A stretch of DNA of 37,155 nt, from contig WFRL01000058.1 of the NCBI GenBank assembly GCA_015486555.1, positions 1 through 37,155 on the forward strand, written 5' to 3'. Within the stretch, counting starts at the first letter, position 1, and each line of letters starts with the position of its first letter. The notes below the pieces were generated by a model that saw only the letters and a list, made by a program, of their open reading frames with translations, was not told where the DNA came from and did no database searches. Below are positions 679 through 32,822 of the stretch, in pieces. This DNA is from Candidatus Microgenomates bacterium. GTDB lineage: Bacteria > Patescibacteriota > Microgenomatia > JAADGY01. Both the position numbers and the translations under genes were made by a program.

Positions 679-712
679 TTTAAGGTTATAAAATTCCTAA
701 GGGAGGATATTT

Positions 713-1000: not shown

Positions 1001-1030
1001 TTAATTAATAAAGTTGTAGAAGGAGGAGAT

Positions 1031-3819: not shown

Positions 3820-3914
3820 CTCTCTTTATTTTAAACTATTGGAATACTATTTATCTTTCTCTATGGAGGATAAAGAACTTAAACTTAACTCGTTAAGGAG
3901 TTATCCCAGTCTGT

Positions 3915-4081: not shown

Positions 4082-4256
4082 TTCAAGAGAAGAGATAATG
4101 TTCTGATCATTAGTTATTGGAATTTGGATATTGCCTGCCCCATAAAGAATGAAATTTCTTTCGGGGTTTGAAAATTGATCATTGATAATTGGTTATTTTA
4201 CTAAGTCCCGAGATCTGAGTTCTGAGATTTGGTTCCAATATGTTTATAATAAAACT

Positions 4257-5762: not shown

Positions 5763-5788
5763 ACTCAATTTTAGCAAAGAGGTGGTAA

Positions 5789-6385
5789 TTATTCTACCCA
5801 GTCTACTTTTAACTCAGCTCTTATGCTAGGAGGAAGGGTAGCTAACCATTTTTTGACTAGGAGTTTAGCCTTATCCGGCTGGCGGTAGATGTAGATGGCG
5901 ATGTATTTTTCGTTGTAATAGCGCACTCCATAGTAACTATTTGGTTTAGGCAGGTGTTGGAGAAGGTATTTTCGTTGGAGTTTTGTTTTCAAAGCCTCCT
6001 CAAATTGAGGCGAGTAACTGCCTACTCCTATCTCATTTGCTGGGGTGTTTACCTGCCATTCTTTTAGTAGTTTGTTTTTGTAATAAATCTTGAAGGTGTA
6101 AATTGTCTTTAAACGAGGAAGCTGTCTTACTTGCCAGGTAAATGTCTTTTCATTAAGGGTGTTAAGTTGGGTTTTTAAAAAGGGTTCTATAACCAGCCTA
6201 ATTTTCTCCCTTATTACCTTTTTGGAGAAGCTGACCTTAATGGTTGAGAAGTAGTTCTCTTCTTTTGGGGAGTAATTGACTACCTTTGGCGGCTGGTTAA
6301 GAAAGATAGTTGTCGCCCCGATAAGAATAGCCAGAAAACTAAGTCCAAGAATAATTTTTTTAGCTGTTACCTTCATGGTTGGCAA
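5789..6385 (-). CDS. Hypothetical N-terminally anchored extracytoplasmic protein (198 aa)
   Basis: Single N-terminal TM (IILGLSFLAILIGATTIF) followed by a beta-rich region. Its start overlaps the 3' end of the CHAP giant gene by 13 nt. Confidence 0.6.
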   Translation of the reverse strand: MPTMKVTAKKIILGLSFLAILIGATTIFLNQPPKVVNYSPKEENYFSTIKVSFSKKVIREKIRLVIEPFLKTQLNTLNEKTFTWQVRQLPRLKTIYTFKIYYKNKLLKEWQVNTPANEIGVGSYSPQFEEALKTKLQRKYLLQHLPKPNSYYGVRYYNEKYIAIYIYRQPDKAKLLVKKWLATLPPSIRAELKVDWVE

Positions 6386-9300
6386 GATAAATTATGTAAC
6401 CAACCGACTAATCTTAAACCTGGGAGGATACTCTTCCAGCCGCCATTGTTTTCTAAAGTGATAAAACGTTGGCTTACGTTGGCGCTAGCAAAAGTTAAGG
6501 TATTCAAGCCGAGTTGGGTGACTATCCCTACGTGGCCGTTTCCGCCACCTCCTTGAAAAACTAGGATATCTCCAAGAGAGGGTGTTTTCCCAGGTTGGTT
6601 AGGAATAGCCGAGAGAAAGTGAGAACAACTTTGGGGAGCATTTACCCACCAATCTCCTGCGTTACCAAAGGTTTTGTTGTCACAAAGGTTGTAAAGGCTC
6701 TGACCGTTGTAAAGGTGGCGGTAAACATCATTAACAAATTCGGTGCATTGGACGTAATGATTTTCTTTTTCTACCCAGTTGGCATCAGCCCGGATATAGT
6801 TTTTAAATGGTCCGTTCTCTCCTGTATTGCCACAATGATAGGAGTTAACGAAGTAGCCTAGGGCCGGGTTAGGATTGGCAGGGCAGTAACAATCGGCTAT
6901 TTGATTGTCGCTACAACGATAAAGTTGATTGACTAATTTCTCCGCTTCAGCAGCAATTTCTTGGCAGCCGATTAAGGGGGCTTGGCCGATAAGGGTGTTG
7001 AAGCCGGTTATCTTTTGGTATTTCTTTCCTTGATTATCCTGAATTGTTACTTGAAGAGTGTTAGCCAGGCGACTGTTTTTGTACTCAGGTTGGAGAGGGA
7101 ATTGGTAATCGACGATTTCCTCACTTCCGACTGTTAGGTCTTTGAAGTTTGAGGTTAGGTCATAGGTTAGGGTTTTAACCAGCCGGCCGCTAGGCAGTTG
7201 ACTGTCCTTGGTATAGATCTGGCTAACATCTTTAACGGCAACGATTTTTAAATCTTTACCTTCAGCCTTCATCTTAATTCGAAAAGTTAACTTAATCTTG
7301 TCCCTGGCGGCGGCATTGCTTAAGCGGGGGAAGGCACTCCTTTCATCTTTAAGGATATATTTTGAATTGACCTTATCTAAACGCAGGTTTTTATAAAGAG
7401 TAAGATATTGGGTTCCACCTGATTGATAATAGAGGTTACTTTTTAAAAAAGCAGTTGAGAGATAAGGATACCAAAAAAGAGAAGCGGCTACTAAGGCGGT
7501 TCCCCCAGGAATAACAGTTAAGGCTAGAGTAATTCCGGTAGTCGAAGTAGCAAAGGCAGTCATTGTTCCCCACAGGCTGCTGGCTAGGCTAGCTGCACTG
7601 CTTGCCAAAGTGCTTAAAGAACCAATAAGGTGCTCTAGTCCGAAACCAACGCCGAATCCGAGGAGAAAACCTACTGGGCCTCCTATAAAACCGCCTATTA
7701 AAAAACCGCCTATTAAACCAAAAAAGACAGCCAGAAGATGGCTGAGGATAAAGTTAATAATTAAGTAAAGCCAGCCGGCAATAAAAGTCAAAATTTCTTT
7801 CCACCAGCGGCGAAGGAAGGGGTAAAGATCTTTAATAAGAGCTAAAACAGCTAGAACTGTCCCCACCCCGCTGGCCAGGCCAGCCAGATCCAAGCCTAAC
7901 TTGCTTAAGACCTTAATGCTAAGTTGGCCAATTTTCTTTAGGCTCCAGATAAGGCCTTTTTTTAAGAGTTGCTTGGGATGAGTAATCAGCCAAAAACCCT
8001 TAAAGATGCGGCCAAACCGTTTTCCAGTTGGGCTGTTCTTAAATCTCTTCCACCAGGCGGCTAACTTCTTTCTAAGGGCTCTTATGCCTCGCCGTGGAGT
8101 TGCTACCACCCTTAAAAGGAAACCAGTAACTTTTTTGTGTCTGTATTTTCTTACTGTTCTGATAATCTTTAACCGAGCCTGGCGAACTCTTTTCCCTAGA
8201 AAACTTTTTCTCCATAACTTTCGAATCTTCCTCCTTACTTTCTTTCTGAGTGTCTTAGGATGAGCAACTGCCTCCACCCCTCCGAGGATTTTGTTAATTA
8301 TTGGCCAGTGGCGGCTGTTTATTACTTCCTGAACTACCCGGCTGTCTTGGACTTCTTTTTGAACATGGTTCAATCTAATACTTAGTTGGTAAGAAGGTAG
8401 GCTAAGGAGAGTAGTTAGCTTAAGGAGCGGTTGGCCGATGAGCCTGGTTTTTAATCGCTGGAACTTAAGATAACTCCGAGCCAGGAAAGGCAGTTTAACT
8501 TCTTTGAGAATGTCTTCATGATCCTTCCTCCATTTGAGCATTTCTTCAAACTGGTGGTGAAGCTTATTCCCTTCAGTAAGAGGCTTGCGAGTGGTAACAG
8601 TCTTGCCCAAAACCCGGATGGGGCTACCCTTTTTTAACCACTCGAACTCCTTTTCCACTTCTTCAGTTGGATGAAGCAGCCAGTCGTAGGCACTAAAGGG
8701 ATTTAGCCCCTTTTCAATTATTAGTTTCCGGTTGTTTTCCTTAGTAAAGAGAGACTTGAAAAGGTACTTTTTCCAGGCCCCCTTAGGCAGTCTAAACATC
8801 CGTTGGCTGGGCCGTTTAAAGATAACTCCGGTTGTGTCGATAATTTCTTTTACTTCCGGATGGGCTTGAACAAGAGGTGATTCTTGGAGAATTTTTTCCA
8901 AGGCGGAAGGAGCAATTAAAATTTTTTCGGCGGGCTTAACGTAGGTAATATAGTTAGCTGCTTGTTCAGCTAGGGTGTTTATTTCTTCCTCATGTTTGGC
9001 GGCATCTGGAATGGAAAGTTTAAGTTGGCGGCGGATAACATCTTTAGCTAAGTTCTTAAGATCGCTGCTATTAAGCGGTGCCTGGCGGCTAAAGGCAGCC
9101 AATCGGTTGACAGCTTCTAGATGATCACTTCTTTTTTCAGTTATCGAGAAGAGGCTCTTTTGTAAATCGTTTTCTAGGTCCACCGGGTGCTTTTTTAGAG
9201 AGGCTCGGAGGTCCAGCCAGCTCTGCCTAAAAATCTTGTCTTGAACATCCTCAGAAAGAAGGAGATTATCGATAATTTTTTGGGAAACTAAACTGGCTAA

Positions 9301-10107
9301 ACTGTCCTCATCTAGTTTTTCTCCTCCCCACCAAATAAGGTTATCCACAGTCTCGGCTATTGAATGAGTCAGAAGCCTGTCCATTTCTTGTTTAACTCTT
9401 TCTAGAGCCTCTTTGTTTTTAGGCAGTTTAAGATTACCCTCAAGGAAAGTAGAGGCCTGCTGGTAGAGGTCTCCTTTTAATTCCTCTACCTGCCTCAGGT
9501 CCGTAGCTGAAGGTGGAGGTAATAGCTCCACCTCCTTGGTTTCAGCTGCTGCTTCGGTTGGGGCCTTTTCCTTGAGAACCTTTTTAAAAGGAAGAATGAT
9601 CAAATAATCAACCGGCGTTTGGTTAGTTTGGTTAATAAGTTGTTTTTCAAGGGCTTCCTGGTATGTTTCAACTACTTCATCGATGGTGCTTACTTCTACC
9701 CTTTCTATTTGCTGGTGGCTGAGAACGGCTAATAATTCTTGAAGGCTAAATGTCTGTTGGAGGTTGCCCCATAAAGCCCCGTAGGCATAGGTCTCCTTAA
9801 GAAGGTTCTTAACTGTTTCGCCTAAGCCATTAAGAATCTTAAGGGAAAGAGTGAATTTTTTTGAAGGAAGATTAATGAGAAGAGTTAGTTCTGGTTGTTC
9901 TTCTAGTTCAGAAAGTGATTGATAAAGGCTTTCTAACCTTTCCTTTCGATCTTGGTGAGTAAGGATTTCTCCGCCTACTTGGACTACTCTTTCTCGAAGG
10001 CCAAGTTTTTCAACCTCAATCAAAAAAAGGAGTTTATTAAAGCACTCTAACCAGCCTTCTATATTTTGAGTCTCTTGCCAACAAGTTTTTTTCTGGGTTT
10101 CGACCAT
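6373..10107 (-). CDS. Giant (1,244 aa) membrane protein with a C-terminal CHAP cysteine peptidase/amidase domain
   Basis: No signal peptide and about 610 aa of soluble N-terminus. An extremely Lys/Arg-rich stretch lies at nt ~8010-8265 and a Gly-rich multi-TM block at nt ~7497-7875. The exodomain is Cys-rich and ends in CHAP motifs: YVQCTEFV (Cys about aa 1121, nt 6745-6747) and NGHVGIV (His about aa 1192). Confidence 0.8.
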   Translation of the reverse strand: MVETQKKTCWQETQNIEGWLECFNKLLFLIEVEKLGLRERVVQVGGEILTHQDRKERLESLYQSLSELEEQPELTLLINLPSKKFTLSLKILNGLGETVKNLLKETYAYGALWGNLQQTFSLQELLAVLSHQQIERVEVSTIDEVVETYQEALEKQLINQTNQTPVDYLIILPFKKVLKEKAPTEAAAETKEVELLPPPSATDLRQVEELKGDLYQQASTFLEGNLKLPKNKEALERVKQEMDRLLTHSIAETVDNLIWWGGEKLDEDSLASLVSQKIIDNLLLSEDVQDKIFRQSWLDLRASLKKHPVDLENDLQKSLFSITEKRSDHLEAVNRLAAFSRQAPLNSSDLKNLAKDVIRRQLKLSIPDAAKHEEEINTLAEQAANYITYVKPAEKILIAPSALEKILQESPLVQAHPEVKEIIDTTGVIFKRPSQRMFRLPKGAWKKYLFKSLFTKENNRKLIIEKGLNPFSAYDWLLHPTEEVEKEFEWLKKGSPIRVLGKTVTTRKPLTEGNKLHHQFEEMLKWRKDHEDILKEVKLPFLARSYLKFQRLKTRLIGQPLLKLTTLLSLPSYQLSIRLNHVQKEVQDSRVVQEVINSRHWPIINKILGGVEAVAHPKTLRKKVRRKIRKLWRKSFLGKRVRQARLKIIRTVRKYRHKKVTGFLLRVVATPRRGIRALRKKLAAWWKRFKNSPTGKRFGRIFKGFWLITHPKQLLKKGLIWSLKKIGQLSIKVLSKLGLDLAGLASGVGTVLAVLALIKDLYPFLRRWWKEILTFIAGWLYLIINFILSHLLAVFFGLIGGFLIGGFIGGPVGFLLGFGVGFGLEHLIGSLSTLASSAASLASSLWGTMTAFATSTTGITLALTVIPGGTALVAASLFWYPYLSTAFLKSNLYYQSGGTQYLTLYKNLRLDKVNSKYILKDERSAFPRLSNAAARDKIKLTFRIKMKAEGKDLKIVAVKDVSQIYTKDSQLPSGRLVKTLTYDLTSNFKDLTVGSEEIVDYQFPLQPEYKNSRLANTLQVTIQDNQGKKYQKITGFNTLIGQAPLIGCQEIAAEAEKLVNQLYRCSDNQIADCYCPANPNPALGYFVNSYHCGNTGENGPFKNYIRADANWVEKENHYVQCTEFVNDVYRHLYNGQSLYNLCDNKTFGNAGDWWVNAPQSCSHFLSAIPNQPGKTPSLGDILVFQGGGGNGHVGIVTQLGLNTLTFASANVSQRFITLENNGGWKSILPGLRLVGWLHNLSCQP

Positions 10108-10152
10108 AAGTCCATTTTACCCTAAGGACAGATAAGTTGCTACAATAGTAGT

Positions 10153-11160
10153 ATGGTTATTAAAGAACATCCAATTCCTCAGAATATAACCACCTATAAA
10201 TTCCGCCTGGTGGGGAATATGACTCTAGTTCAGTTCTTGGAGGTCCTAGGGGGGGTGGGTTTAGCCTTTGTCTTTTGGAAGTCTCCTCTTTACCCAATTC
10301 TTAAATTTCCTCTTGCTCTTAGTTCGGCCAGCTTAGGGTTTTTAATGGCTTTTGTTCCTCTCGAGGAGAGACCTCTTGATGTTTGGTTAGTCTCTTTTAT
10401 TAAGAAGATCTACCGGCCGACTCTTTTTATTTACCATTCTCTAGCCCACTTACCACTTTACCAAACCTATAAGCCGGAAAAAAGGGAGGAGGCAACCAAA
10501 TTAATTGCAACTAACAAACTGAATAGCTTTCTCAAAAAGAGTTCTCATTTAGCTGGGGTTTCCCAAAATGATCTTATCCATAAATACATTGATCAGCTTT
10601 TCCAAGAGGAGACAATTGAATCGTCATTCACTAAGGAAGAGAAAAGAGAAAAGAAGAAAACCCAATTACCTAAGGTACCTCCCTCCAGGTTGCCAATTAG
10701 GAGAAAAAAGATAGTTCTAGTTTCGTCCCCTCCTGAGCTGGTTAAGAAAAAAGAGAAGAAACGGGTTAAAAAACCACCTCAGGTAGAAACCATTCTCCAA
10801 ACTTCCCTGTCACCAGTTAAGATTGAGAAAAAGCCGACTGTAAAAGGAACAGCACCGACTTTTGACACATCCTTACCTCGACCAACTAAGGCGAACTTGC
10901 CTTCAGGCATCATTTTTGATGAGGCTAATCACCCCCTAGTGGGGGCAATCGTGGAAATAAAGGATAAAGATGGTCTGCCGCTTCGAGTTACTAAGACTAA
11001 TATAATTGGTCAGTTTACTTTAGTAACTCCTCTTCCTTCAGGAGAATATCTTGTAACCGTGGAAAAAGATGGTTACCAAGCTCAACCTATAAAGCTTAAA
11101 CTTGAAGGGAAAGTGGTTAAACCGTTAAAGATAAAAGCCAAAGAGGTTAAAGGTGCCTGA
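10153..11160 (+). CDS. PrgI/VirB3-like membrane protein fused to a C-terminal carboxypeptidase-regulatory-like beta-sandwich (335 aa)
   Basis: N-terminus IPQNITTYKFRLVGNMTLVQF + two TM helices + EERPLDVWL matches the PrgI family pattern. A Lys/Pro-rich linker follows. The C-terminus reads GIIFDE..PLVGAIVEIKDKDG...TNIIGQFTL..LPSGEYLVTVEKDGYQ. Confidence 0.7.
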   Translation: MVIKEHPIPQNITTYKFRLVGNMTLVQFLEVLGGVGLAFVFWKSPLYPILKFPLALSSASLGFLMAFVPLEERPLDVWLVSFIKKIYRPTLFIYHSLAHLPLYQTYKPEKREEATKLIATNKLNSFLKKSSHLAGVSQNDLIHKYIDQLFQEETIESSFTKEEKREKKKTQLPKVPPSRLPIRRKKIVLVSSPPELVKKKEKKRVKKPPQVETILQTSLSPVKIEKKPTVKGTAPTFDTSLPRPTKANLPSGIIFDEANHPLVGAIVEIKDKDGLPLRVTKTNIIGQFTLVTPLPSGEYLVTVEKDGYQAQPIKLKLEGKVVKPLKIKAKEVKGA

Positions 11161-12868: not shown

Positions 12869-12895
12869 ATAAAAATTATGACATACCTTTACATT

Positions 12896-13262: not shown

Positions 13263-13310
13263 TTTTCATCTGTATCCTGATAATATATTCTTAATGTTAC
13301 AATAAGGTAA

Positions 13311-13664: not shown

Positions 13665-13681
13665 TGTATAATTAATTAACT

Positions 13682-14573: not shown

Positions 14574-14696
14574 CTACCCAACTGAATTAATTTTTTAGTT
14601 TAGTTTTGAGTTAAGTAAACGTCTATTTTCAATCTGAATTTTAATTAGGTAAGGCTCTACCCCCTCCAAAAAAGGCCTTATAGTATAATAAGGCAA

Positions 14697-24516: not shown

Positions 24517-24560
24517 TTAGTTTAATTAGGAGTGTAGAAGGAAGTGTTAAGATAATAAAT

Positions 24561-25238: not shown

Positions 25239-25267
25239 TTGACTTTCGATAAGTTTCGAAATATGAT
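25239..25267 (+). promoter_or_regulatory. Candidate promoter TTGACT-17-TATGAT with TTTCGA direct repeat / TTTCGAAA palindrome in the spacer
   Basis: TTGACT 25239-25244, TATGAT 25262-25267, ATG at 25277 with no SD. TTTCGA at 25244-25249 and 25254-25259 (10-bp phasing). TTTCGAAA at 25254-25261 is palindromic. Confidence 0.4.
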
Positions 25268-26632: not shown

Positions 26633-26699
26633 TAAGAATACTATATTAAAAAGGAGGCTCATAGTCTCAAATGTGTGTGACCAGGATATATAATAAAAT

Positions 26700-27143
26700 A
26701 TGGGACGAGTAGAACCATTATTTTTTGTTTACAGTGGTTTATTTTTTATAATTCTTGAGCTTATCTTGGGAGTAAATACCGGTTTAGATCTTTTTTTAGC
26801 TGGGGTAGCCTTGCTCCTGGGCGGTGGTGTTTTTGCTTTAACTAATGTTCTTTGGACAGCAATAGCAACAGCATTGTTAATAATTATATTGTATTTCGTT
26901 CTTTTTCGAGCCGCCCTCAGAGTGAAATTTGTTTCCCCAGCTACCACCAAGGTAAACATAGATCGTTTAATAGGAAGAGAAGGGATAGTTATTAAAGAAA
27001 TAAAATCTTCCGAAGCGGGCCAAGTTAAGGTAGATAATGAGATTTGGCGAGCGGTGGCGGAGAAAAATCTTAATAAGGGAGAAAAGGTTATAATTAACTC
27101 AGTTGAAGGAGTAACCTTAAAAGTTTATCAAAAGGAGGATTGA
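26700..27143 (+). CDS. NfeD family membrane protein (147 aa)
   Basis: Three N-terminal TM helices and a C-terminal OB-like domain (GREGIVIKEI..GQVKVDNEIWRAVAE..LNKGEKVIINSVEGVTLKV). Upstream partner of an SPFH gene, as in known NfeD-stomatin operons. Confidence 0.8.
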   Translation: MGRVEPLFFVYSGLFFIILELILGVNTGLDLFLAGVALLLGGGVFALTNVLWTAIATALLIIILYFVLFRAALRVKFVSPATTKVNIDRLIGREGIVIKEIKSSEAGQVKVDNEIWRAVAEKNLNKGEKVIINSVEGVTLKVYQKED

Positions 27144-29275: not shown

Positions 29276-29399
29276 AGTTATATAATAAGGCTGGGTATAG
29301 TTCTTATTTCTGGTTTCCAGTCGGTGCGAAGGCAACTCTATCTAACTGTTGGAGAAGCTTTTAAAATGAGGCCGGCAGTTGGCTGATAGAATATAGATA

Positions 29400-30180: not shown

Positions 30181-30251
30181 AGCGGGATAGGGGAATCGAA
30201 CCCCCATTTTCTGCTTGGGAAGCAGATGTACTGCCACTGTACTAATCCCGC
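30181..30251 (-). tRNA. tRNA-Gly (anticodon CCC), no encoded CCA
   Basis: Manual cloverleaf: acceptor GCGGGAT/ATCCCGC, D-stem GTAC/GTAC with AGTGGCA loop, anticodon stem TCTGC/GCAGA with loop TTCCCAA, T-arm GGGGG-TTCGATT-CCCCT, discriminator U. Followed by CAA. Confidence 0.85.
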
Positions 30252-31132
30252 TTAAGTATATTATAACTGGCATTAAGAAGTTTTTGATAAGCCTCTAGTT
30301 GCCATAATTTCCTAAGGTTATTGAACCCCAGCCCAATAGTAAAGAGAATTTTTTCTAAAAGAGGAATTCTAGGCGAGTGGCTGTAAATTAAACAAAGGAT
30401 TAAAGTAAGAATTGAGATAGCAAATTTAGTTAGGTCGCCAATCTCCATATGAAAGAAATCTTCAATTAGAAGTTCCAAACCGATATTTAGGATAAGGAGA
30501 TAAGCCGCTTCGGCTAAGATAGGCTCTTTTTCGATAAGATGGATAAAGACCCCCGCAGCCAACCTCATTAAAAAGATGCCGATAGCTACCCCAGTAAAAA
30601 CATAAATGAATTTATCAGAGATGGCTACTGCTGCCACTACGTTATCTAAGCTGAAAATGAGGTCAGATAACTCAATGACAATAACCGTTGACCAGAAACC
30701 TTTCTTTGCCTTTTTCTCAAGAGGGATGACCTCTTTTTTCATCTCTTCTTTTACTTCTTTCTCAATGCTTTCTCCTTTTTCAGTTAATTCTCCTAGGTGA
30801 TCAACAGCCAACTTAATAAGGTATAATCCTCCGACTAATCTTAACCAGGGGTTATGAATGATATAGGTGGCTAAAAGAAGCATTAGCCCCCGACCAAGGT
30901 AGGCTCCTAACAAACCCACTCTTAAGGCAGCTTGTTGTTGGTTGCCCAAGAAAATGTTTAGTTCTTCAGCTAGGTATTGTGGCACTATAGCTGGCCAGGG
31001 TGTCTTTTTATGAGAGGGTAAATGAGAGGCTAAGCTTCCTAAAACCATAGCATTGTCAATCGATAGAATTCCTTCAAGGAAGATAAGCTGAAGGATTATT
31101 AAACCACCATCAACTAGCCAGTCCATAGTCAT
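30242..31132 (-). CDS. TerC family integral membrane protein (296 aa)
   Basis: Duplicated DN motifs (LSIDNAMVLG and FSLDNVVAAVA) in a polytopic protein. AAGGAG SD 8 nt upstream. Confidence 0.85.
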   Translation of the reverse strand: MTMDWLVDGGLIILQLIFLEGILSIDNAMVLGSLASHLPSHKKTPWPAIVPQYLAEELNIFLGNQQQAALRVGLLGAYLGRGLMLLLATYIIHNPWLRLVGGLYLIKLAVDHLGELTEKGESIEKEVKEEMKKEVIPLEKKAKKGFWSTVIVIELSDLIFSLDNVVAAVAISDKFIYVFTGVAIGIFLMRLAAGVFIHLIEKEPILAEAAYLLILNIGLELLIEDFFHMEIGDLTKFAISILTLILCLIYSHSPRIPLLEKILFTIGLGFNNLRKLWQLEAYQKLLNASYNILKRD

Positions 31133-31169
31133 TATTTTAACTCCTTGTTCAATCTGCGATAATAAATGT

Positions 31170-32822
31170 ATGTCTTTTGGTTTGTATCGTTTTCCAAATC
31201 CAATTCTTCTTTTAAGGAGAAAACAAAGAAGTATTTTTAAAGCTAGCCTAATTATTCTGGTTTCAATACTTTTTTCCCGTTTACTAGGGGTAGTTAGAGA
31301 CCGTCTTTTTACTACTTACTTTTTCGGTGGTCGGGAGTGGCAATTAGATGTTTATTACGCTGCCTTTAGGATTCCAGACACTCTTTACCAGCTTCTTATT
31401 AGTAGTGTGATAATGGCTGGTTTTTTACCCATTTTTAGCCAGAAGTTAGTCCGTCAGTCTAAAAGTCGAGCCTTCAATTTTGCTTTGGTAACTATCTTTA
31501 GTCTTATCTTTATCTTTTCTCTTATTGTTGCTCTATCTTACCCCTTTTGGCCTCAACTCCTTAACTGGTTAGCTCCTGGTTTTAATTTTTCCCAAAGAAA
31601 ATTGCTTCTTCAACTGACTCCCTATATTGTTTTAGCAGAGTTAATTCTAGCCGCCTCAAACCTAAGCGTTCTCATTCTGCAAACACATAATAACTTCATT
31701 TCCCCCGCCCTTTCCCCTTTAATGTACAACTTGGGGATAATTTTGGGTATCGTTGTCCTCTCGCCACGTTATCAAGCTTTGGGTTTAGCCTATGGGGTGG
31801 TCTTAGGCAGTTTAGGTCATCTTTTTATCCAACTGCCAGCCTTAATTCAGGTGATCGACGGCAAACTAAATCTCAGTCTTTATTCTTGGCAAGAAATTAA
31901 GATTGATCTAATCAGGTTTTTTGACCTCTCTTTACCTAATTTCTTATCCATTTTCTTAATTCAGGTCCAAACCAACTGGCTAACTCGATTAGCCACCTTT
32001 TTAACTATGGGGAGTCTTTCCTTACTCAATCTAGCTAACAATCTTATCCAATTGCCAATAAGCATTTTTGCCTTAGCCTTGGGTCAAGCTATTTTTCCTA
32101 AGCTAGCTTTGTCTCAAGAAAGAATGGATCAGAAACGGTTTATCTATCTTTTTGAACAAGCTATTCAACAGACATTTTTTATTATCACCCCCCTATTAAT
32201 TCTTTTCATAGTTCTCCGTCTCCCTCTAGTCCGCTTGATTTTAGGATCTCGTCATTTTAGTTGGCGGAATACAGTTATTACTGCTAAAATTATTGAGATT
32301 ACCCTGCCAATTATCCTGGCCCAGAGCTTGAGTGTTACCTTTCAAAAGGTATTTTTGGCTCTTGGCCAAAGTCGTTTCATTCTCATCGCTCAATTCTTTT
32401 CTACCCTCACTTTTGTAGGATTGACTCTTTATTTATTACCCCGCCAACCAACAGTTCTGAGCTTAGCTTGGGCTCTTTCCTTAGCAGCAGTGGTTAAATT
32501 TTTCCTAGCTGGTTGGTTACTTCTAAAAGGTAATCCTCTTCTCCGTGTAGCTATTCTGAACTCTCTTCAGACCTTTGTTAAGATTACTTTAGTGGGGGTA
32601 ATCTCCCTCCTCTTGGCCTGGTTAAGCTATCGCTTAGGTAACTCGCTCTTTAACCCAGCCTACATAGTCAGTCTTTTTTGGATCATCTCTTTAGTGGGTG
32701 TAGTAACTGGGGCAAGTTATCTTAGCTTAAGCTATTGGTTAAAGATTAGCCCCCTTTTTTCTTTGGCTAGCCAGTTTTATTTTTTAAAGCTAAGATCAAA
32801 TGTTTTTCGGGTGAAACGGTGA
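31170..32822 (+). CDS. murJ: Lipid II flippase MurJ/MviN (550 aa)
   Basis: N-terminal SRLLGVVRDRLFTTYFFGG...DVYYAAFRIPDTLYQLL signature and about 14 TM helices. Confidence 0.85.
   Translation: MSFGLYRFPNPILLLRRKQRSIFKASLIILVSILFSRLLGVVRDRLFTTYFFGGREWQLDVYYAAFRIPDTLYQLLISSVIMAGFLPIFSQKLVRQSKSRAFNFALVTIFSLIFIFSLIVALSYPFWPQLLNWLAPGFNFSQRKLLLQLTPYIVLAELILAASNLSVLILQTHNNFISPALSPLMYNLGIILGIVVLSPRYQALGLAYGVVLGSLGHLFIQLPALIQVIDGKLNLSLYSWQEIKIDLIRFFDLSLPNFLSIFLIQVQTNWLTRLATFLTMGSLSLLNLANNLIQLPISIFALALGQAIFPKLALSQERMDQKRFIYLFEQAIQQTFFIITPLLILFIVLRLPLVRLILGSRHFSWRNTVITAKIIEITLPIILAQSLSVTFQKVFLALGQSRFILIAQFFSTLTFVGLTLYLLPRQPTVLSLAWALSLAAVVKFFLAGWLLLKGNPLLRVAILNSLQTFVKITLVGVISLLLAWLSYRLGNSLFNPAYIVSLFWIISLVGVVTGASYLSLSYWLKISPLFSLASQFYFLKLRSNVFRVKR

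What the first reader, a model, noticed from the sequence alone, without database searches (positions are those of the whole stretch)
10108..10152. Back-to-back -10 boxes 6 nt from two divergent ATGs; a window-wide pattern suggesting leaderless first genes
The 45-bp spacer between the CHAP giant (-) and the PrgI-like gene (+) holds two boxes. TAAAAT (10114-10119, minus sense) and TACAAT (10141-10146) each sit 6 nt from their ATG, with no SD.

The same layout, TAnAAT-like box to start codon with a 5-9 nt gap and no SD, recurs at:
- 3828-3833 to 3819(-)
- 4245-4250 to 4257
- 5768-5773 to 5762(-)
- 12875-12880 to 12868(-)
- 13298-13303 to 13311
- 13667-13672 to 13682
- 14684-14689 to 14697
- 24548-24553 to 24561
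- 25262-25267 to 25277
- 26689-26694 to 26700
- 29387-29392 to 29400
- 31158-31163 to 31170

By contrast, several other genes carry strong GGAGG-type SDs: groES, groEL, the EncFtn-like gene, the HPF-like gene, the SPFH gene, 28031, the TerC-family gene and 36951. This suggests a two-mode initiation system: leaderless at many operon heads, SD-led elsewhere.
Basis: partly seen in the sequence, partly recalled or inferred. Interest (0 to 1): 0.6.

Follow-up and report, generated by a model that had tools for sequence, protein, structure and literature searches.

The report
Leaderless promoters in a CPR bacterium
In this tiny uncultured (CPR/Patescibacteria) bacterium, roughly a fifth of all genes and up to half of operon-first genes have a promoter -10 box 5-8 bases before the ATG. 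Their mRNAs should therefore start at the start codon with no ribosome-binding leader, a known mechanism that I found no report of in this group.

Summary
All 14 box-to-ATG layouts sit at the stated coordinates.

Genome-wide (711 kb MAG), TAnAAT hexamers followed by an ATG that opens a long ORF spike at gaps 5-7: 48, 45 and 29 cases against about 5 at other gaps. That is roughly 130 excess genes.

Four features that were not used to pick these genes mark the boxes as real sigma-70 promoters firing at the A of ATG:
- TGn extended -10 in 27% of cases, against about 4.5% at other offsets.
- T at -1 in 71%, against 27-29% in other genes. This gives the Y-R-Y start element.
- The spike appears only for ATG, not for GTG or TTG.
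- Enrichment at divergent or well-spaced operon heads (26-33%) over tightly packed genes (9%).

SD sites are real but fewer, and they favour closely spaced genes. A family member's 16S keeps CCUCC.

Orthologues of both genes in three relatives keep the box at gap 5-6, even where the genes are not head to head. The 45-bp spacer is 43/45 identical to the sister species.

This is GeneMarkS-2 "group C" architecture in a Microgenomates-like CPR lineage. It is a known mechanism in a newly documented lineage. No 5'-end data could be obtained.

The parts
10108..10152 (.). 45-bp divergent spacer holding two back-to-back -10-dominant promoters. The predicted TSSs (10107 minus strand, 10153 plus strand) are 46 bp apart.
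   Evidence: The spacer is 43/45 identical to the same-genus genome G001, while adjacent third codon positions are 63% identical. Both substitutions fall in the discriminators, not in the boxes, the TG or the -1 T.
10114..10119 (-). -10 box TAAAAT of the CHAP-domain giant gene, 6 nt from its ATG, with T at -1.
   Evidence: Orthologues in G001, G002 and G003 keep (G)GGTAAAAT + 5-6 nt + ATG.
6373..10107 (-). 1244-aa CHAP-domain protein gene. The A of its ATG (10107) is the predicted transcription start.
   Evidence: Pfam CHAP 1.4e-11. The first ATG is the one preceded by the box in all four genomes.
10138..10146 (+). Extended -10 TGcTACAAT of the PrgI-like gene, 6 nt from its ATG, with T at -1.
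   Evidence: Orthologues have TACAAT (G001), TATAAT (G003) and TATCAT (G002), all at gap 6, although the flanking sequence has diverged.
10153..11160 (+). 335-aa PrgI-family / CarboxypepD_reg protein gene. The A of its ATG (10153) is the predicted transcription start.
   Evidence: Pfam PrgI residues 7-89 match model positions 1-86 of 91. The N-terminus M[VAP][IFV]KEHP[IV]PQ is conserved from residue 1.
3828..3833 (-). TAAAAT box 8 nt before ATG 3819. This is a leaderless or 1-2 nt leader candidate. The gap is purine-rich.
4245..4250 (+). TGtTATAAT box 6 nt before ATG 4257.
   Evidence: Identical layout in G001.
5768..5773 (-). TGcTAAAAT box 5 nt before ATG 5762 (adenosine-specific kinase family).
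   Evidence: Same layout in G001.
12875..12880 (-). TGtCATAAT box 6 nt before ATG 12868 (VanW-like protein).
   Evidence: Same layout in G001.
13298..13303 (+). TGtTACAAT box 7 nt before ATG 13311 (T4SS pilin-like 1).
13667..13672 (+). TATAAT box 9 nt before ATG 13682 (T4SS pilin-like 2). At this gap a 1-3 nt leader is as likely as none.
14684..14689 (+). TATAAT box 7 nt before ATG 14697 (1249-aa protein).
   Evidence: Same layout in G001.
24548..24553 (+). TGtTAAGAT box 7 nt before ATG 24561 (HD-domain protein).
25262..25267 (+). TATGAT box 9 nt before ATG 25277 (wHTH protein).
26689..26694 (+). TATAAT box 5 nt before ATG 26700.
29387..29392 (+). TGaTAGAAT box 7 nt before ATG 29400 (HAD hydrolase).
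31158..31163 (+). TGcGATAAT box 6 nt before ATG 31170 (550-aa membrane protein).
702..706 (+). Contrast case: GGAGG Shine-Dalgarno 6 nt before the groES ATG at 713.
1022..1026 (+). Contrast case: GGAGG Shine-Dalgarno 4 nt before the groEL ATG at 1031.
27134..27138 (+). Contrast case: GGAGG 4 nt before ATG 27143 (SPFH gene, operon-internal).
31141..31145 (-). Contrast case: AGGAG 8 nt before ATG 31132 (TerC-family gene). Its leader must begin inside or beyond the 37-bp spacer it shares with the leaderless gene at 31170.

Best explanation
The two hexamers in 10108-10152 are the -10 elements of two divergent sigma-70-type promoters with weak -35 regions. The plus-strand one has a TGn extension.

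Each is placed so that RNA polymerase starts on the A of the ATG: T at -1, A at +1, T at +2, with the A 7 nt after the box. Both genes would therefore be made as leaderless mRNAs whose 5'-terminal AUG is the only initiation signal.

This is the usual layout for transcription-unit heads in this genome. About 130-190 of roughly 670 genes have it, and a third to a half of the heads. Other genes, mostly closely spaced ones and a set that includes groESL, use a canonical GGAGG Shine-Dalgarno site that pairs with a normal CCUCC anti-SD.

Shown here:
- the positions, the spacing statistics and the accompanying promoter hallmarks;
- conservation in orthologues.

Inferred, not shown:
- that transcription really starts at the A;
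- that 5'-AUG mRNAs are translated without a leader, as in Mycobacterium, Deinococcus and E. coli cI (established knowledge);
- that the two promoters exclude each other. The two predicted starts are only 46 bp apart and each -35 region lies over the other's -10 box, so the two polymerase footprints must overlap.
For: 1. Coordinates and gaps are verified.

2. Test free of gene-start calls. TAnAAT followed by ATG plus a long ORF gives 48, 45 and 29 cases at gaps 5-7, against about 5 elsewhere. The excess is about 131 genes (p about 3e-65).

3. Features not used in selecting the genes:
- TGn at -15/-14 in 61 of 222 cases, against about 10 at other offsets, plus a weak TTG at 17-nt spacing.
- T at -1 in 71% of these genes against 27-29% of others (Fisher p 1.6e-20). 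In the call-free set it is 45/48, 35/45 and 19/29 at gaps 5, 6 and 7.
- Y-1R+1Y+2 centred 7-8 bp after the -10 box fixes the TSS in 79-93% of E. coli promoter variants (PMC12641261).

4. GTG and TTG starts show no spike.

5. Heads are enriched over packed genes: 33% and 26% against 9%, with a 0.2% control.

6. Orthologues of both genes in G001, G002 and G003 keep a box at gap 5-6, although in G002 and G003 the genes are co-directional.

7. The spacer is 43/45 identical to G001, against 63% identity at third codon positions.

8. There is no room in 45 bp for a leadered alternative.

9. A class-level complete genome (G040) shows the same spike and the same TGn enrichment. The TATAAT-N5-7-ATG index is 4.9-5.9 in the three other genomes of the family (2.7 in this genome). 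It is 2.2 at the median in the class and about 1.3 in Firmicutes controls.
Against: - No 5'-end or RNA data.
- An E. coli-style -35/-10 consensus scan finds no promoter in 9800-10500. Both -35 regions match TTGACA at only 2-3 of 6 positions.
- The minus-strand box has no TGn.
- Boxes at gaps 8-9 (3819, 13682, 25277) would more likely give 1-3 nt leaders.
- My gene calls are heuristic: longest ORFs, no trained gene finder.
- Leaderless status is only weakly conserved between orthologues at class-level distance (odds ratio 2.2, p 0.03).
- The MAG lacks its own 16S, so the anti-SD is taken from a family member.
Confidence: 0.85

Rival explanations
1. The hexamers are chance matches in AT-rich intergenic DNA (60% A+T) and have no function.
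For: TAnnnT is very common (31,050 copies in the genome) and by itself shows only a faint positional signal. Some of the listed boxes are degenerate: TAAGAT, TATGAT, CATAAT, GATAAT.
Against: - Sharp positional spike at gaps 5-7, p about 3e-65.
- Non-genic intergenic ATGs carry a box in only 6.9% of cases, against 55% of window gene starts.
- TGn and T-1 co-occur at the right offsets.
- The box is conserved in orthologues although the flanks have diverged.
Confidence: 0.02
2. The A/T-rich hexamer is a non-Shine-Dalgarno ribosome-binding or enhancer element (GeneMarkS-2 "group B" type, S1-dependent). It would sit on leadered mRNAs that start further upstream.
For: - The motif lies at the same distance from the start as an RBS would.
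- The genome encodes an S1 homologue.
- 9% of tightly packed genes also have the box.
Against: - Group B motifs occur equally before internal and first genes (PMC6028130). Here the shares are 9% against 26-33%.
- An RBS model does not predict TGn three bases upstream, a pyrimidine at -1, or restriction to ATG.
- In the 45-bp spacer, a leadered mRNA would have to start inside the opposite gene.
- S1 here is the short 4-domain type (PMC9297842).
Confidence: 0.05
3. The promoters are real, but transcription starts 1-4 nt before the ATG, or wobbles. The mRNAs would then have very short leaders and would not be strictly leaderless.
For: - Gaps of 8-9 nt occur (18 and 17 cases genome-wide, and 3 in the window).
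- The relative G040 peaks at gaps 6-10.
- TSS choice normally falls 7-8 nt after the -10 box.
Against: - For gaps 5-7, which are the majority and include both promoters of this finding, the A of ATG is exactly 6-8 nt after the box and is preceded by T in 66-94% of cases.
- Leaders of 5 nt or less are by convention still counted as leaderless and lack any SD.
Confidence: 0.08

Closest known systems
Bacterial leaderless gene architecture, GeneMarkS-2 "group C" (Actinobacteria such as Mycobacterium tuberculosis, and Deinococcus-Thermus; Lomsadze et al. 2018, PMC6028130)
   Same: - Pribnow box 6-8 nt from the start codon of first genes in operons.
- 25-50% of operons predicted to be leaderless.
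- Remaining genes carry SD sites at the same distance.
- The mixture of the two signals confuses simple RBS models.

All of these are seen here.
   Different: - The lineage is a 0.7-Mb, 40% G+C CPR/Patescibacteria (Microgenomates-like) genome, not a high-G+C actinobacterium or Deinococcus.
- The full TAnAAT box often has TGn, and the T at -1 is very strong.
- Only ATG is used. Mycobacteria also use GTG; that statement is from my own knowledge.
- There is no experimental TSS map.
Y-1R+1Y+2 "start element" of bacterial core promoters (Kuo et al. 2025, PMC12641261)
   Same: T-A-T centred 6-8 nt after the -10 hexamer, the position at which this element fixes the TSS in E. coli libraries.
   Different: Here the R+1Y+2 of the element are the first two bases of the start codon itself. 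The only CPR species in that study (Nanosynbacter lyticus) had TSSs inferred from RNA-seq coverage, with a variable -10-to-TSS distance.
Back-to-back (divergent, overlapping) promoter pairs of model bacteria
   Same: Two -10 boxes on opposite strands within one polymerase footprint. Each -35 region overlaps the partner's -10 box, so occupancy should be mutually exclusive (inference from the geometry).
   Different: - Both transcripts are leaderless, so the whole bidirectional control region fits in 45 bp. Elsewhere in this genome it fits in 22-38 bp, with the two -10 boxes overlapping in the shortest spacers.
- No regulator site has been identified.
Non-SD, A/T-rich RBS genomes (GeneMarkS-2 "group B", Bacteroidota)
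   Same: An A/T-rich motif a few bases before the start codon, with few SD sites.
   Different: The group B motif precedes internal and first genes alike and is not a promoter. Here the motif is head-biased and carries TGn and T-1.

Membership tests
Leaderless-rich bacterial genome (GeneMarkS-2 group C) | Pribnow-type box localised about 6-8 nt upstream of start codons, well above background | tested here: met
   Gaps 5, 6 and 7 give 48, 45 and 29 cases against about 5 at other gaps. The excess is about 131 genes.
Leaderless-rich bacterial genome (GeneMarkS-2 group C) | The signal belongs to first genes of operons, not equally to internal genes | tested here: met
   A strict box precedes the first ATG in 33% of divergent genes and 26% of genes more than 100 nt from the neighbour. 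For genes 30 nt or less from the neighbour the share is 9%; the control is 0.2%.
Leaderless-rich bacterial genome (GeneMarkS-2 group C) | Other genes carry SD-type RBS, and the 16S rRNA has an anti-SD | tested here: met
   GGAGG spikes 4-6 nt before ATGs. SD 5-mers occur at 16-24% of closely spaced genes against a 2.8% control. The 16S of family member G002 ends GGATCACCTCCTTTC. This MAG has no 16S of its own.
Leaderless-rich bacterial genome (GeneMarkS-2 group C) | Mapped mRNA 5' ends coincide with the start codon (5' UTR of 5 nt or less) | not testable with these tools
Leaderless-rich bacterial genome (GeneMarkS-2 group C) | A 5'-terminal start codon that can be a TSS (purine first base; AUG strongly preferred) | tested here: met
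   The spike exists for ATG only. GTG and TTG are flat.
Sigma-70 housekeeping promoter | -10 hexamer with invariant A at position 2 and T at position 6, TATAAT consensus | tested here: met
   Logo: T 0.96, A 1.0, T 0.57, A 0.78, A 0.79, T 1.0. The A at position 2 and the T at position 6 were selection criteria, and at least 4-5 of 6 matches to TATAAT were required. The frequencies at the other four positions are therefore inflated by selection.
Sigma-70 housekeeping promoter | Extended -10 TGn one base upstream of the hexamer | tested here: met
   61 of 222 cases against about 10 at other offsets. Present at 10138-10139 for the plus promoter, absent for the minus promoter.
Sigma-70 housekeeping promoter | -35 hexamer TTGACA at 17 +/- 1 nt | tested here: inconclusive
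   Only a weak T-T-G enrichment at the right spacing genome-wide. The two promoters of the finding match at 2-3 of 6 positions. The consensus scan finds none in 9800-10500.
Sigma-70 housekeeping promoter | Pyrimidine at -1 and purine at +1, 7-8 nt after the -10 box (start element) | tested here: met
   T at -1 in 71% of boxed genes against 27-29% of others, p 1.6e-20. It is 45/48 and 35/45 at gaps 5 and 6. The rule comes from PMC12641261.
Non-SD A/T-rich RBS genome (GeneMarkS-2 group B) | The same motif occurs upstream of both first and internal genes, on leadered mRNAs | tested here: not met
   9% against 26-33%. The TGn and T-1 hallmarks are not expected of an RBS.

The most novel reading that the evidence does not exclude
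The Microgenomates-like class of CPR/Patescibacteria, and patches of other CPR classes, would form a third large bacterial clade in which leaderless mRNAs are the default for transcription-unit heads.

The unit would be a compact cassette of about 35 bp: (TGn)TAnAAT, then N5-7 ending in T, then ATG.

The cassette would travel with its gene through rearrangements. Here, an inversion brought two such cassettes head to head. This would allow bidirectional control regions of only 22-45 bp, contributing to genome compaction. It would also make start-codon calls by SD-trained gene finders systematically unreliable in these MAGs.
Probability: 0.5. Interest if true: 0.6.

Novelty: new member of a known kind. 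Interest (0 to 1): 0.42.

Why it matters
Leaderless initiation is well described in Actinobacteria, Deinococcus-Thermus and archaea. I found no paper in the searchable library that links it to CPR/Patescibacteria. Work on CPR ribosomes notes short S1 proteins and loss of the anti-SD in some lineages, but does not say how mRNAs are recruited.

If confirmed, the finding would:
- explain how these reduced genomes manage with 22-45-bp divergent intergenic regions;
- give a rule for correcting start codons in CPR MAGs: the first ATG 5-8 nt after (TGn)TAnAAT, preceded by T;
- provide ready-made minimal promoters, with no RBS needed, for the genetic tools now being developed for Patescibacteria;
- add a deep-branching, small-ribosome lineage to the debate on whether leaderless initiation is ancestral.

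The mechanism itself is not new.

Tried and rejected
- The MAG's own 16S. None is present, so I used a family member's.
- The search for related loci with the PrgI-like protein found nothing. The genome search on relatives worked instead.
- LORF-based motif profiles showed a period-3 artefact from in-frame upstream stop codons (TAA/TAG). I replaced them with a test that ignores gene-start calls.
- The loose TAnnnT motif alone is too common to be informative.
- The E. coli-style -35/-10 scan found no promoter at the spacer. These promoters are -10-dominant, so this scan does not detect them.
- Search for the conserved 21-nt inter-box core elsewhere in the genome, as a possible operator. It is unique.
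- Conservation of leaderless status across 282 reciprocal-best orthologues with the class-level genome G040. It is only weak (odds ratio 2.2, p 0.03), so I do not use it as strong evidence.
- S1 (rpsA) absence as a possible cause. Rejected, because a short 4-domain S1 is present.
- Rfam. Nothing lies in or near the spacer; the only hit in the window is one tRNA.

Full report
**What is there**

The window is contig C58 of a 711-kb, 86-contig MAG with 40% G+C, 88.65% completeness and 0.12% contamination. Its groEL is closest to named Collierbacteria, Woesebacteria and WWE3 MAGs (63% identity). It is therefore a Microgenomates-like member of the CPR/Patescibacteria.

At 10108-10152 a 45-bp spacer separates two genes:
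- the minus-strand 1244-aa CHAP-domain gene, with its ATG at 10107;
- the plus-strand 335-aa PrgI-family gene, with its ATG at 10153.

The spacer reads CAT aagtcc ATTTTA ccctaaggacagataagt TGc TACAAT agtagt ATG. This gives TAAAAT in minus sense and TGcTACAAT in plus sense. Each box is exactly 6 nt from its ATG, and each ATG is preceded by T.

Eight of the 14 carry TGn.

**Is it more than chance?**

In the window, 16 of 29 gene starts have a -10-like box at gap 5-9. Internal in-frame ATGs show 5.0% and non-genic intergenic ATGs 6.9% (p about 8e-12).

My first genome-wide profile was anchored on longest-ORF starts. It showed a period-3 artefact from in-frame stop codons, so I switched to a test that ignores gene calls. 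For every TAnAAT in the genome, on both strands, I counted ATGs at each downstream distance that open an ORF of at least 70 codons.
- Counts are 48, 45, 29, 18 and 17 at gaps 5-9.
- The mean at gaps 12-30 is 5.2.
- The excess is about 131 genes, with Poisson p about 3e-65 for gaps 5-7.

With my own 666 ORF calls, 30% of first ATGs have a box, against 4.4% of internal start codons.

**Are the boxes promoters that fire at the ATG?**

Four features that were not used in selecting the genes say yes.

1. Aligned on the box, TG sits at -15/-14 in 61 of 222 cases, against about 10 at other offsets. A weak T-T-G appears at 17-nt spacing.

2. The base before the ATG is T in 71% of boxed genes: 85% at gap 5 and 75% at gap 6. 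In SD-type or signal-less genes it is 27-29% (Fisher p 1.6e-20). In the call-free set it is 45/48, 35/45 and 19/29 at gaps 5, 6 and 7. T-A-T is the Y-1R+1Y+2 "start element". When centred 7-8 bp after the -10 box, this element coincides with the TSS in 79-93% of E. coli promoter variants (PMC12641261).

3. The spike exists only for ATG. GTG and TTG are flat. This fits the need for a 5'-terminal AUG that is also a purine start.

4. A strict TAnAAT at gap 5-8 precedes the first ATG at these rates:
- 33% of genes with a divergent upstream neighbour;
- 26% of same-strand genes more than 100 nt from the neighbour;
- 22% at 31-100 nt;
- 9% at 30 nt or less;
- 0.2% of internal ATGs.

**The second mode**

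- GGAGG has its own spike 4-6 nt before long-ORF ATGs: 26, 18 and 10 cases against about 5.
- SD 5-mers occur at 16-24% of closely spaced genes. They occur at 5-12% of heads and 2.8% of control ATGs.
- The MAG has no 16S gene. The 16S of a same-family genome ends GGATCACCTCCTTTC, so the anti-SD is intact.
- A short S1 homologue of about 375-406 aa, covering four S1 domains of the model, is present in this genome and its relatives. Tsurumaki et al. report the same for CPR (PMC9297842).

Many genes show neither signal. And some boxes lie inside the 3' end of an upstream gene.

**Comparative evidence**

The PrgI-like gene has orthologues in 40 of 41 related genomes. Within the family the layouts are:

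| Genome | Identity | Box and gap |
|---|---|---|
| G001 (same genus) | 78% aa | TGcTACAAT aatagt ATG |
| G003 | 48% aa | TATAAT gtaccc ATG |
| G002 | 43% aa | TATCAT taaaat ATG |

All three are at gap 6, although the surrounding sequence no longer aligns.

The CHAP-giant orthologues read:
- agggTAAAATagactt ATG in G001;
- agggTAAAATcaaggt ATG in G003;
- gaggTAAAATaggtt ATG in G002.

In G002 and G003 the CHAP-giant + 198-aa block lies upstream of the PrgI-like gene on the same strand. The head-to-head layout in this genus therefore reflects a rearrangement, apparently an inversion. I did not determine which arrangement is ancestral. Each gene kept its own promoter-ATG cassette.

Between G000 and G001 the 45-bp spacer is 43/45 identical, while adjacent third codon positions are 63% identical. 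Both changes fall in the discriminators. The 21-nt stretch between the boxes is unique in the genome.

**Breadth**

- A complete class-level genome (G040, 766 kb) shows the same spike, slightly shifted: gaps 6-10 give 40, 34, 41, 27 and 25 against about 8. TGn is present in 30-39% of cases at gaps 6-8, 22% at gap 9 and 16% at gap 10.
- I used a crude index: TATAAT-N5-7-ATG counts divided by counts of the reversed pattern. The results are:

| Group | Index |
|---|---|
| This genome | 2.7 |
| Its three family mates | 4.9-5.9 |
| 40 class-level relatives (median) | 2.2 |
| 72 genomes of other CPR classes (median; 8 are at least 2.5) | 1.5 |
| Six Firmicutes controls (median) | 1.3 |

- Leaderless status of individual orthologues is only weakly conserved at class distance (odds ratio 2.2, p 0.03).

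**Mechanism**

Shown: the geometry, the statistics and the conservation.

Inferred:
- RNA polymerase with the housekeeping sigma binds a -10-dominant promoter. The -35 matches are 2-3 of 6, and an E. coli-type consensus scan finds nothing.
- It starts at the A of ATG.
- The 5'-AUG mRNA is translated without a leader, as established for mycobacterial, Deinococcus and E. coli cI mRNAs (my own knowledge, plus PMC6028130).
- The two predicted starts are 46 bp apart and each -35 region overlaps the other's -10 box. The two polymerases should therefore exclude each other.

Genome-wide, 21 of 71 divergent pairs have boxes on both sides. Their spacers are as short as 22-38 bp, and in the shortest ones the two -10 boxes overlap.

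**Novelty**

This is the GeneMarkS-2 "group C" architecture in a lineage for which I found no published description. The one CPR species with TSS data in the literature I could read had only coverage-inferred starts.

Earlier notes of this scan report the same reading in several other CPR genomes. I treat these as agreeing leads, not as evidence.

Verdict: a real feature, a known mechanism, a new lineage. The missing piece is a 5'-end map.

Noticed in passing
window 5789-10107 versus G002:C37 19860-25579 and G003:C86 4392-10241: The CHAP-giant + 198-aa gene block is inverted relative to the PrgI-like gene in this genus (G000, G001). In two other genera of the family all three genes are co-directional. 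Each gene keeps its own -10 box at gap 5-6 in both arrangements.
   Followed up: partly
genome contigs C3:2362-2385, C27:12348-12374, C56:8740-8773, C4:3344-3380, C46:16186-16225: Divergent gene pairs separated by only 22-38 bp have -10-like boxes for both directions. In the shortest spacers the two boxes overlap (for example ATTATACT in C3, where the two boxes share 4 nt), which suggests shared bidirectional -10 regions.
   Followed up: partly
genome-wide; window example 6385: 23 genes lying 30 nt or less behind a same-strand neighbour still have a strict TAnAAT 5-8 nt before their first ATG (9% against a 0.2% control). Candidate leaderless promoters are therefore embedded in the 3' ends of upstream genes. 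At 6385 a CATAAT box precedes a TTG start, which is doubtful.
   Followed up: no
window 30181-30251 (-): A tRNA gene (Rfam 69 bits) lies between the HAD gene and the TerC-family gene. It overlaps the last 10 nt of the 30242-31132 ORF call.
   Followed up: no
window 31133-31169: A 37-bp divergent spacer in which the plus gene (31170) is leaderless-type while the minus TerC-family gene has an AGGAG SD. The TerC promoter must therefore lie over or inside the start of the opposite gene.
   Followed up: no
L101 (G002:C16 3077-4761): The 16S rRNA of a same-family genome spans 1685 nt against a 1533-position model. This suggests an insertion, as is often reported for CPR. The same-genus genome G001 has a 16S cut at model position about 873 near a contig end.
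   Followed up: no
G000:C62 2402-3412 (-) and relatives: The ribosomal protein S1 homologue is short, with open frames of 358-433 aa in this genome and its relatives (406 aa here). It matches only positions 17-346 of the 516-position rpsA model, and no genome in the class reaches the curated cut-off.
   Followed up: partly
L021-L023, L026 (genome contigs): The closest groEL relatives (63-67% identity) are in MAGs titled "uncultured Gammaproteobacteria". Three of the four (L021-L023) were checked and have genomes of about 1.1 Mb. These are probably mislabelled CPR bins.
   Followed up: no
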